Source: Escherichia coli
GTDB lineage: Bacteria > Pseudomonadota > Gammaproteobacteria > Enterobacterales > Enterobacteriaceae
Length of the DNA: 653 nt
NCBI RefSeq assembly: GCF_003334255.1
Contig: NZ_QOWU01000204.1
Strand: one strand, 5' to 3'
Shown piece by piece: positions 1 through 653 of the stretch. The stretch's first letter is position 1, and every line of letters starts with the position of its first letter. Made by a program: the position numbers and the translations under genes. Below the pieces are notes generated by a model that had not been told where the DNA came from, searched no databases, and saw only the letters and a program-made list of their open reading frames with translations.

Positions 1-1
1 T

Positions 2-22
2 GTGATGAACCGTCAGAAATGA
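2..22 (+). CDS. Possible 3' end of an upstream gene in frame +2 (C-terminus ...VMNRQK*), stop TGA at 20-22 overlapping the TerL start; plausibly the terminase small subunit.
   Basis: Seen in sequence: frame +2 reads gtg-atg-aac-cgt-cag-aaa-TGA (2-22) with no earlier stop, and the TGA shares two bases with ATG 19-21 (ATGA overlap). Established knowledge: small and large terminase genes are commonly adjacent and translationally coupled by overlapping stop and start codons. Only 6 sense codons are visible, so this is weakly supported. Confidence 0.3.
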   Translation: MMNRQK

Positions 23-653
23 CCGGGACCGAACAACGTCTGTTCATCATGACTAAACTGAGCAATCCCTGGTGGCGGCTCAATCATCTCTACAAAATAC
101 AGAACGAAAAAGGTGAGCTGGTCACCTTCAGAATGCGACCGGCGCAGCGCCAGTTGTTCCGGAGCATGCACAATAAAAATATTATCCTGAAAGCACGCCA
201 GCTGGGGTTTTCCACGGCCATTGATATTTATCTTCTCGACCAGGCATTATTCATACCGCATCTCAAATGCGGGATTGTCGCTCAGGATAAACAGGCTGCC
301 AGTGAAATTTTCCGCACCAAAATTGCTGTACCGTTTGATCATCTTCCTGACTGGCTGAGAGCCTCATTCACCATCGTTGAACGTCGTAGCGGAGCCAGCG
401 GTGGCTATATCCTGTTTGGTCACGGCTCGAGTATCCAGGTGGCAACCTCATTCCGTTCAGGTACGGTGCAGCGCCTGCATATCTCAGAGCACGGCAAAAT
501 TTGCGCAAAATATCCGGCTAAGGCGAAAGAACTGCGAACCGGTACACTTAATGCCGTCTCTGATGAGTGCATTATCTTTGATGAATCCACTGCTGAAGGT
601 GTGGGTGGCGATTTTTACGAGATGAGTAACCGGGCACAGGAAATCACTGCATC
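19..653 (+). CDS. Putative phage terminase large subunit (TerL), N-terminal ATPase domain; 3'-partial, continues beyond window. The start may instead lie upstream of the window, because frame 1 is open from position 1.
   Basis: Seen in sequence: frame +1 has no stop codon across positions 1-651 (217 codons); the only other ORF in the track is nested in frame +2. ATG at 19-21 overlaps TGA at 20-22 (ATGA). Translation contains P-A-Q-R-Q (codons 47-51, nt 139-153), a deviant Walker A K-A-R-Q-L-G-F-S-T (codons 64-72, nt 190-216), and a hydrophobic strand plus acidic pair C-I-I-F-D-E (codons 190-195, nt 568-585). Established knowledge: large terminases have a Q/adenine-binding motif about 15 residues before a Walker A that often carries R-Q-x-G and a lysine shifted to the N-terminal side (lambda gpA KSARVGYS; T4 gp17 SRQLGKT), followed about 90-130 residues later by a hhhhDE Walker B. 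The family call is inference from motifs; no homology search was run. Confidence 0.6.
   Translation, partial: MTGTEQRLFIMTKLSNPWWRLNHLYKIQNEKGELVTFRMRPAQRQLFRSMHNKNIILKARQLGFSTAIDIYLLDQALFIPHLKCGIVAQDKQAASEIFRTKIAVPFDHLPDWLRASFTIVERRSGASGGYILFGHGSSIQVATSFRSGTVQRLHISEHGKICAKYPAKAKELRTGTLNAVSDECIIFDESTAEGVGGDFYEMSNRAQEITA

What the first reader, a model, noticed from the sequence alone, without database searches (positions are those of the whole stretch)
1..653. Window lies entirely inside a terminase large-subunit-like gene, marking a phage, prophage or satellite packaging module
A single uninterrupted frame +1 reading frame carries the ordered motif set of TerL ATPase domains (Q-like motif, then Walker A with R-Q-x-G, then hhhhDE Walker B). 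TerL is the most conserved hallmark of tailed-phage-like elements, so the surrounding locus is probably a prophage, phage genome, phage-inducible island or gene transfer agent cluster. The novelty of that element cannot be judged from 653 bp.
Basis: partly seen in the sequence, partly recalled or inferred. Interest (0 to 1): 0.35.

Follow-up and report, generated by a model that had tools for sequence, protein, structure and literature searches.

The report
933W-type prophage large terminase gene

Summary

**Identity.** The 653 bases are 100% identical to prophage DNA in many E. coli chromosomes. They are 96.6% identical to gene L0113 ("putative large subunit terminase") of Shiga-toxin phage 933W.

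**Position in the gene.** The window covers codons 10-227 of a 568-codon gene. That gene lies between a small-terminase gene and a portal gene.

**Coding evidence.** Frame +1 has no stop codon, while the other five frames have 6-20. Against 933W, 19 codon differences are synonymous and 2 are not.

**Family evidence.**
- Pfam-A and NCBIfam find nothing.
- PHROG 2 (TerL) matches.
- T4 gp17 matches by sequence, at 3.7e-8 with the single protein and 1.2e-11 with a family profile.
- A confident AlphaFold model matches T4 gp17 at Foldseek E = 8.6e-23.

- The annotated start lies 27 nt upstream of the window, so the Met at nt 19 is internal.
- Walker A is KARQLGFST. A Phe sits where the classical Lys belongs, and an invariant Lys sits at the start of the loop.
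- The true Walker B is LHIS171-E172.
Its Asp is Ile, Val or Leu in 141 of 149 relatives.

Novelty: already known. Interest is low.

The parts
1..653 (+). Internal part (codons 10-227, plus 2 nt of codon 228) of the 1707-nt, 568-codon large terminase gene. This is the ATPase domain from its N-terminal helices to just past the coupling motif.
   Evidence: The window is 100% identical to WP_000143995.1 genes in E. coli prophages. The CDS runs from 27 nt upstream of the window to 1027 nt downstream of it. Frame +1 is open. Synonymous to non-synonymous codon differences against 933W are 19:2.
19..21 (+).
   Evidence: The annotated start is the ATG 27 nt before window nt 1, with GGAG 5 nt upstream of it. 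No Shine-Dalgarno sequence precedes nt 19. Some distant homologues are annotated from this position.
139..153 (+). Q (adenine-binding) motif region PAQRQ. Q58 is at nt 145-147.
   Evidence: Q58 aligns with T4 gp17 Q143. It is Q in 145 of 149 family representatives.
190..216 (+). Deviant Walker A (P-loop) K73-A-R75-Q-L-G78-F79-S80-T81.
   Evidence: It aligns with T4 L160-SRQLGKTT. K73, R75 and G78 are invariant (149/149). Position 79 is F, I, M, C or G and never K. In the model, strand 68-73 is followed by a loop and then helix 79-93.
454..456 (+). Conserved Arg161.
   Evidence: It aligns with T4 gp17 R245 and is Arg in 144 of 149 representatives. I did not test its role.
475..489 (+). True Walker B strand L168-H-I-S171, followed by the catalytic Glu172.
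   Evidence: It aligns with T4 I-Y-I-D255-E256 by BLASTP, by phmmer and by a family profile without T4. Position 171 is Ser in 142 and Thr in 6 representatives, and never Asp. E172 is conserved in 148/148. The model has a strand at 167-171.
571..591 (+). Next beta-strand, I200-I-F-D203, followed by the coupling (C) motif E204-S205-T206.
   Evidence: E204-S205-T206 aligns with T4 T285-T286-T287. E204 is conserved in 148/149, S205 in 147 and T206 in 148. D203 is Asp in only 2 of 149. The model has a strand at 200-205.

Best explanation
The window is part of the large terminase (TerL) gene of a 933W-type (Sepvirinae-like) lambdoid prophage of Escherichia coli.

The encoded 568-residue protein has two domains. 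The N-terminal domain is an ASCE ATPase, and most of it lies in the window. The C-terminal domain is an RNase H-like nuclease and lies downstream of the window.

By analogy with T4 gp17, the protein docks on the portal of the empty capsid together with the small terminase encoded just upstream. It then cuts concatemeric phage DNA and pumps it into the head using ATP. In the literature this TerL clade is classed as a headful ('933W type') packager.

Shown here: identity of the gene, its frame, its neighbours, its fold and the positions of the motifs.

Inferred: the catalytic roles of the residues. On this reading K73, at the start of the P-loop, replaces the classical Walker A lysine. E172 is the catalytic glutamate. 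E204 of the coupling motif may take over metal binding from the missing Walker B aspartate.
For: **DNA identity.** The window is 100% identical to prophages in at least 11 complete E. coli genomes, and the gene is present in 424 of 5426 complete genomes. It is 96.6% identical to 933W L0113 and VT2-Sakai H0128, both annotated as large subunit terminase.

**Synteny.** The order TerS (PHROG 370, 2.5e-117), this gene, portal (PHROG 156, 6.6e-253), N4-gp56-type capsid protein holds in the records I opened.

**Sequence family.** PHROG 2 'terminase large subunit' matches at 1.2e-29 and 5.3e-52. phmmer against the PDB finds T4 gp17 at 3.7e-8, covering both domains. A family profile without T4 finds gp17 at 1.2e-11.

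**Fold.** The AlphaFold model has pLDDT 90.3 and pTM 0.83. Its Foldseek matches are T4 gp17 at 8.6e-23, followed by the T7, PhiV-1, Sf6, D6E, P74-26 and G20c terminases.

**Motifs.** Every T4 catalytic position maps onto a conserved position in this protein. On the nuclease side, T4 D401/E458/D542 correspond to D385/E440/D534.

**Selection.** Codon differences against 933W are 19 synonymous and 2 non-synonymous.

**Literature.** 'Headful (933W type)' is an established TerL class (PMC7317114; PMC6029569).
Against: - Pfam-A gives no terminase hit for the fragment or for the full protein, and NCBIfam gives none. Only 3 of 101 relatives reach E <= 0.001 for Terminase_6N and 7 for Terminase_6C.
- The two residues usually taken as indispensable in T4 gp17, Walker A Lys166 and Walker B Asp255, are replaced by Phe79 and Ser171.
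- The source genome of the window is unknown. The copy it comes from could be broken downstream, as in strain G8, where a T5 run has become T4 at gene nt 721.
- I found no biochemical study of this particular terminase.
Confidence: 0.96

Rival explanations
1. The gene is the terminase of a phage satellite (PICI-like island) or a gene transfer agent, not of a complete phage. These were the other options the first reader left open.
For: TerL genes do occur in such elements, and the source contig of the window is not known.
Against: Every exact or near-exact match I opened lies in a lambdoid genome or prophage. Those genomes carry replication, Nin, lysis, portal, capsid and tail-fibre genes. The matching phage records are about 57-88 kb. 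186 phage records carry at least 80% of the window at 90% identity or more.
Confidence: 0.02
2. The window belongs to a decayed, non-functional copy (pseudogene) of the terminase in a cryptic prophage.
For: Strain G8 carries a frameshifted copy with a window region 100% identical to this one. The shift lies 41 nt downstream of the window end. Strain G6/7 has a frameshifted small-terminase gene next to an intact TerL.
Against: The window itself has no stop or frameshift. The same 568-residue protein stands for a 90%-identity cluster of 1753 member sequences. Identical DNA sits in the phage record PhiR5_2, whose host is listed as E. coli K-12, and 99.8%-identical DNA sits in the PhiR12_3 record. 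The homopolymer-length differences in single assemblies look like sequencing errors, but I did not test that.
Confidence: 0.05
3. It is an unrelated P-loop NTPase, for example an SF1/SF2 helicase, and not a packaging ATPase.
For: The Walker A and Walker B motifs are non-canonical. No Pfam or NCBIfam terminase model matches. Weak Foldseek matches to Dda and DEAD-box helicases appear (ranks 31 and 44).
Against: The 30 best fold matches are all terminases, with E values at least 7 orders of magnitude better than any helicase. The C-terminal half is a terminase-type nuclease with the acidic triad conserved. The gene sits between TerS and portal.
Confidence: 0.01

Closest known systems
Phage 933W L0113 / VT2-Sakai H0128 'large subunit terminase' (Sepvirinae, Traversvirus), the reference of the 'headful, 933W-type' TerL class
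   Same: It is the same gene. DNA identity over the window is 96.6%, with 2 amino-acid differences (G18E and T19A in full-length numbering). Length is the same at 568 residues, and the neighbours are the same: TerS upstream with a 20-nt overlap, portal downstream.
   Different: The exact-match prophage in strain G8 carries no Shiga-toxin genes and no tRNA genes between the late-regulator region and the lysis genes. Several exact matches come from commensal, wastewater and bird isolates.
Bacteriophage T4 gp17 (PDB 3CPE, 3EZK, 2O0H), Pfam Terminase_6N/6C type
   Same: The two-domain architecture and fold match (Foldseek E = 8.6e-23). The order of the Q motif, R-Q-x-G P-loop, Walker B strand with catalytic Glu, coupling motif and nuclease acidic triad is the same.
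   Different: Identity is only about 23%. T4 K166 corresponds to Phe79, D255 to Ser171, L160 to Lys73 and T285 to Glu204. T4 also has about 85 extra N-terminal residues. The Pfam Terminase_6N and 6C models do not reach this protein.
Lambda gpA deviant Walker A (KSA-R79-VGYS; Mitchell and Rao 2004, Virology 321:217, listed in the references of PMC6379665)
   Same: Both P-loops follow the pattern K-x-x-x-x-G-aromatic-S. The Lys sits at the start of the loop, an aromatic residue sits where the classical Lys belongs, and Arg is at position 3 or 4 (Table 1 of PMC6379665, compared).
   Different: Lambda keeps the Walker B Asp (VAGYD-E179), whereas this family has Ser or Thr. Lambda gpA belongs to another TerL family (Pfam GpA_ATPase) and makes cohesive ends. 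I made no direct alignment with lambda.
TerL of Bcep22, Erwinia vB_EhrS_49 and Vibrio 1.047.O
   Same: The ATPase half is 38-42% identical, with the same KARQLGF[ST]T, LH[IV]SE and ESTAEG motifs.
   Different: Their C-terminal nuclease domain is of another type and does not align with that of 933W. In the family profile, that half hits the D6E terminase and not T4.

Membership tests
Large terminase (TerL) of tailed phages | N-terminal ASCE P-loop ATPase fold | tested here: met
   The AlphaFold model has pLDDT 90.3. Foldseek finds the T4 gp17 ATPase domain 2O0H at E = 1.8e-10 (TM 0.59 on the target) and P74-26 4ZNI at 1.5e-6.
Large terminase (TerL) of tailed phages | Walker A with the terminase-specific Arg at position 3 or 4 and the classical GK[ST] lysine | tested here: inconclusive
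   The P-loop, Arg75 and Gly78 are invariant. The classical Lys is absent: position 79 is Phe, and is never Lys in 149 relatives. An invariant Lys73 opens the loop. This matches the published 'deviant' terminase Walker A. The function of Lys73 was not tested.
Large terminase (TerL) of tailed phages | Walker B hhhhD followed by the catalytic Glu | tested here: inconclusive
   The catalytic Glu172 is invariant and aligns with T4 E256. The Asp is replaced by Ser171, and the family has Ser in 142 and Thr in 6 representatives.
Large terminase (TerL) of tailed phages | Q (adenine-binding) motif upstream of Walker A, and a coupling (C) motif after Walker B | tested here: met
   Q58 corresponds to T4 Q143. 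E204-S205-T206 corresponds to T4 T285-T287. All are at least 97% conserved.
Large terminase (TerL) of tailed phages | C-terminal RNase H-like nuclease with an acidic triad | tested here: met
   This lies outside the window, in the full gene. D385/E440/D534 correspond to T4 D401/E458/D542. Foldseek finds G20c 5M1F at 9.9e-9 and RB49 3C6A at 4.4e-8.
Large terminase (TerL) of tailed phages | Position between the small terminase and portal genes | tested here: met
   Seen. PHROG 370 (TerS) and PHROG 156 (portal) match the neighbours.
Large terminase (TerL) of tailed phages | ATP-driven DNA packaging and DNA cutting activity | not testable with these tools
   This needs biochemistry or genetics. 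933W and its relatives are viable phages, so the activity must exist somewhere in the genome.
933W-type ('headful, 933W type') TerL clade | Close sequence identity to 933W L0113 | tested here: met
   The DNA is 96.6% identical over the window, with 2 amino-acid differences in 217 residues.
933W-type ('headful, 933W type') TerL clade | Headful packaging with circularly permuted, terminally redundant ends | not tested
   This is taken from the literature (PMC7317114, PMC6029569) and from a note in the vB_EcoP_phi296 record. No end analysis is possible from the window.
Pfam Terminase_6N (PF03237) / Terminase_6C (PF17289) | Significant match to the family HMM | tested here: not met
   There is no hit for the window protein or for the full protein. 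Among 101 relatives, only 3 (6N) and 7 (6C) reach E <= 0.001. The protein works like and folds like this type, but the current models do not capture it.

The most novel reading that the evidence does not exclude
The whole 933W-type TerL clade (1080 representatives of 50%-identity clusters at E <= 1e-30) may run its packaging ATPase with a rewired active site. The classical Walker A Lys is never present at position 79 in the 149 aligned representatives, and an invariant Lys73 sits at the start of the P-loop. The Walker B Asp is never present at position 171, which is Ser or Thr, and an almost invariant Glu204 sits on the neighbouring coupling-motif strand. That Glu could have taken over Mg2+ coordination. 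The Lys relocation is a published idea for other terminases. In the held literature I found no description of the Ser-for-Asp change combined with a Glu on the C-motif strand. The sequence pattern is shown here. The functional reading is inference, and no 3D distances could be measured with these tools.
Probability: 0.3. Interest if true: 0.35.

Novelty: already known. Interest (0 to 1): 0.1.

Why it matters
As a locus it adds nothing new. It is the terminase of a prophage type found in about 8% of complete E. coli genomes (424 of 5426), the same type that carries Shiga toxin genes in EHEC.

Two practical points follow.

1. Standard domain libraries (Pfam-A, NCBIfam) miss this very common TerL. 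RefSeq therefore often labels it 'hypothetical protein' and gives the name 'terminase' to the small subunit next door. Screens that depend on those models will under-call this phage type.
2. The clade offers a natural test case for how far the Walker A and Walker B residues of a viral packaging motor can be relocated.

Tried and rejected
- **Pfam-A** on the 211-residue fragment and on the full 568-residue protein gave only a chance FERM_F1 match, at E = 0.12 and 0.46.
- **NCBIfam** gave no family, even at E <= 0.1.
- **Rfam** at E <= 1 on both strands gave nothing.
- **Repeats** in the window: none, direct or inverted.
- **Promoter and terminator scan** found one site of each kind, no more than in shuffled sequence.
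- **The profile** contained a T4-like gp17, so its strong PDB hit was circular. I discarded it and repeated the search with a T4-free family alignment.
- **Reading IIFDE as the Walker B** was rejected. See the observation check.
- **Reading the Met at nt 19 as the start** was rejected for the E. coli gene.
- **Satellite, gene transfer agent or helicase readings** were rejected on context and fold.
- **Literature searches** for a description of the Walker B of 933W-type terminases found nothing relevant. Mitchell et al. 2002 (PMC137109) is not in the held library.

Full report
**Observation**

The window has one open frame. Frame +1 has no stop in 217 codons, while the other five frames carry 6-20 stops and no ORF longer than 82 codons. 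With the window's base composition, a stop-free run of this length has probability 2.3e-5. Against phage 933W the window has 22 base differences in 21 codons. Nineteen of those codons are synonymous and two are not. The frame is therefore translated and under purifying selection.

**Identity**

Megablast against complete E. coli genomes finds the window in 424 of 5426 genomes, nearly always on the chromosome. At least 11 records are 100% identical. Against phage records it matches 193 records, most named as Stx-converting or Escherichia phages. Identity is 96.6% to 933W gene L0113 'putative large subunit terminase' and to VT2-Sakai H0128 'large subunit terminase'.

In the exact matches the CDS is 1707 nt (568 codons, WP_000143995.1) and starts 27 nt upstream of window position 1. 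The window therefore covers codons 10-227.

That start ATG has a GGAG 5 nt upstream and overlaps the end of the preceding gene by 20 nt. It has no Shine-Dalgarno sequence. However, some homologues in other genera are annotated from the equivalent position, and the first 10-20 residues are poorly conserved and modelled with low confidence.

**Surroundings**

In strain G8 the 30 kb around the match are a lambdoid prophage. The gene order is:
- replication genes;
- NinB, NinE, RusA and NinH;
- holin, lysozyme and a lysis protein;
- a 283-residue protein that matches PHROG 370, small terminase (2.5e-117);
- this gene;
- a portal gene (PHROG 156, 6.6e-253);
- an N4-gp56-type major capsid protein;
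- tail fibres.

The same order holds in 933W, PhiR12_3, strain G6/7 and S1-KEN-03-A. The G8 prophage has no room for stx genes and no tRNA genes ahead of the lysis cassette. It is a toxin-free relative of the Stx phages.

**Family evidence**

Pfam-A finds nothing for the fragment or the full protein, and NCBIfam finds nothing. It does not, because other evidence is strong:
- PHROG 2 'terminase large subunit' matches at 1.2e-29 for the window and 5.3e-52 for the full length.
- phmmer against PDB sequences finds T4 gp17 at 3.7e-8, with separate matches in the ATPase and nuclease domains.
- A profile of 101 family members that contains no T4 sequence finds gp17 at 1.2e-11.
- An AlphaFold model built on that alignment has mean pLDDT 90.3 and pTM 0.83.
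- The 30 best Foldseek matches of the model in the PDB are all terminases. They are T4 gp17 (8.6e-23), then T7, PhiV-1, Sf6, D6E, P74-26, G20c and RB49.

The family is large. It has 9426 representatives of 50%-identity clusters at E <= 1e-3 and 1080 at E <= 1e-30. In phage records it spans Stx phages and Vibrio, Ralstonia, Burkholderia (Bcep22), Erwinia and Roseobacter phages. The literature uses 'headful (933W type)' as a named TerL class when inferring packaging strategy (PMC7317114; PMC6029569).

**Motif anatomy**

I mapped the T4 gp17 functional residues through a 10-sequence alignment. I then checked conservation in a MAFFT alignment of the query with 150 cluster representatives.

| T4 gp17 | This protein | Conservation in the family |
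|---|---|---|
| Q143 | Q58 | 145 of 149 |
| R162 | R75 | 149 of 149 |
| G165 | G78 | 149 of 149 |
| K166 | F79 | F 98, I 19, M 14, C 5, G 4; never K |
| L160 | K73 | 149 of 149 |
| D255 | S171 | S 142, T 6; never D |
| E256 | E172 | 148 of 148 |
| T285-T286-T287 | E204-S205-T206 | 148, 147 and 148 of 149 |

D203 is Ile, Val or Leu in 141 of 149 representatives and Asp in only two, so it cannot be a Walker B aspartate.

Pairwise BLASTP, phmmer and the T4-free profile all put LHIS-E172 on T4 IYID-E256. The model shows the expected elements:
- strand 68-73, a loop, then helix 79-93, which together form the P-loop;
- strand 167-171, the Walker B strand;
- strand 200-205, the coupling-motif strand.

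The motif order in the window is therefore Q, Walker A, Walker B (LHISE), then C motif (EST).

**How it most likely works**

By homology with T4 gp17, the protein forms the ATP-driven motor on the portal vertex, cuts concatemeric DNA with its C-terminal nuclease, and is directed to phage DNA by the small terminase. These steps are inferred from family membership and were not tested here.

The P-loop follows the pattern K-x-x-x-x-G-aromatic-S, the same as lambda gpA's KSA-R79-VGYS (Table 1 of PMC6379665). Mitchell and Rao (Virology 2004, listed in the references seen) proposed, as I recall their abstract, that a Lys at the start of the loop is the spatial equivalent of the classical Lys. The conserved Arg75 sits at position 3, where the 'arginine toggle' of PMC6379665 is located.

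The Ser-for-Asp change in Walker B, together with a conserved Glu at the first position of the coupling motif, suggests that the metal-binding carboxylate has moved to the neighbouring strand. This is my inference from the ASCE strand order. I could not measure distances in the model.

**Comparison and novelty**

This is the 933W-type TerL. It is already in GenBank and RefSeq hundreds of times and is used as a reference class in the literature. It works like and folds like T4 gp17. Judged by the HMMs, it is not a member of Pfam Terminase_6N or 6C. Nothing in the window departs from its published relatives.

**Verdict**

The finding is real, correctly interpreted and ordinary. Its details need correction on three points: the start codon, the Walker B assignment and the deviant Walker A. 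Interest is 0.1.

Noticed in passing
window 1-653; records NZ_CP145698.1, NZ_CP145694.1 and NZ_CP196679.1 (locus L006 1-1707): Three 'complete' E. coli chromosome records begin exactly at nucleotide 1 of this prophage terL gene, with the window at record positions 28-680. The chromosomes were presumably rotated to a terL start by an automatic re-orientation tool meant for phage genomes.
   Followed up: partly
L003 3144-5680; L006 1-1707; L001 14142-16679: RefSeq annotation is inconsistent. The intact 568-residue TerL (WP_000143995.1) is labelled 'hypothetical protein', and so is the portal in two of the three records. The small-terminase gene next to it, or a frameshifted copy of it, is labelled 'terminase'. 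No Pfam-A or NCBIfam model covers this very common TerL.
   Followed up: yes
window about nt 575-620 (full-length residues about 200-214): PHROGs 26724 (192 positions) and 38407 (370 positions), both labelled 'unknown function', are simply the N-terminal and C-terminal pieces of this TerL (1e-99 and 1.5e-267). They probably come from split or truncated gene calls in some phage records.
   Followed up: partly
L001 14974-16679 (gene nt 721, 41 nt past the window end); L003 3144-3993: Strain G8 has a frameshifted terL (a T5 run reads as T4) and a frameshifted portal. The related strain G6/7 has an intact terL but a frameshifted small-terminase gene. Homopolymer-length differences of this kind in single assemblies look like sequencing errors rather than decay, but I did not test this.
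   Followed up: partly
full-length residues about 320-568, downstream of the window; loci L007, L008, L009: Most relatives of the ATPase half, including Bcep22, Erwinia vB_EhrS_49, Vibrio phages and most of the 150 cluster representatives, carry a different, shorter nuclease domain. In the family profile that half hits the D6E terminase. The 933W-type and Roseobacter CRP-7 proteins carry a T4-like nuclease domain instead. The two halves of TerL have therefore been recombined within this clade.
   Followed up: partly
L001 7553-11593: The exact-match prophage of strain G8 lacks stx genes and the tRNA genes that precede stx in 933W. It keeps the large esterase-like gene downstream (DUF6645/SASA family, here frameshifted). 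It is a toxin-free relative of the Stx phages in a commensal isolate from healthy human faeces.
   Followed up: partly
window 454-456 (Arg161): Arg161 is nearly invariant (144 of 149) and aligns with T4 gp17 R245, eleven residues before the catalytic Glu. It could be a trans-acting arginine finger, but I did not examine this.
   Followed up: no
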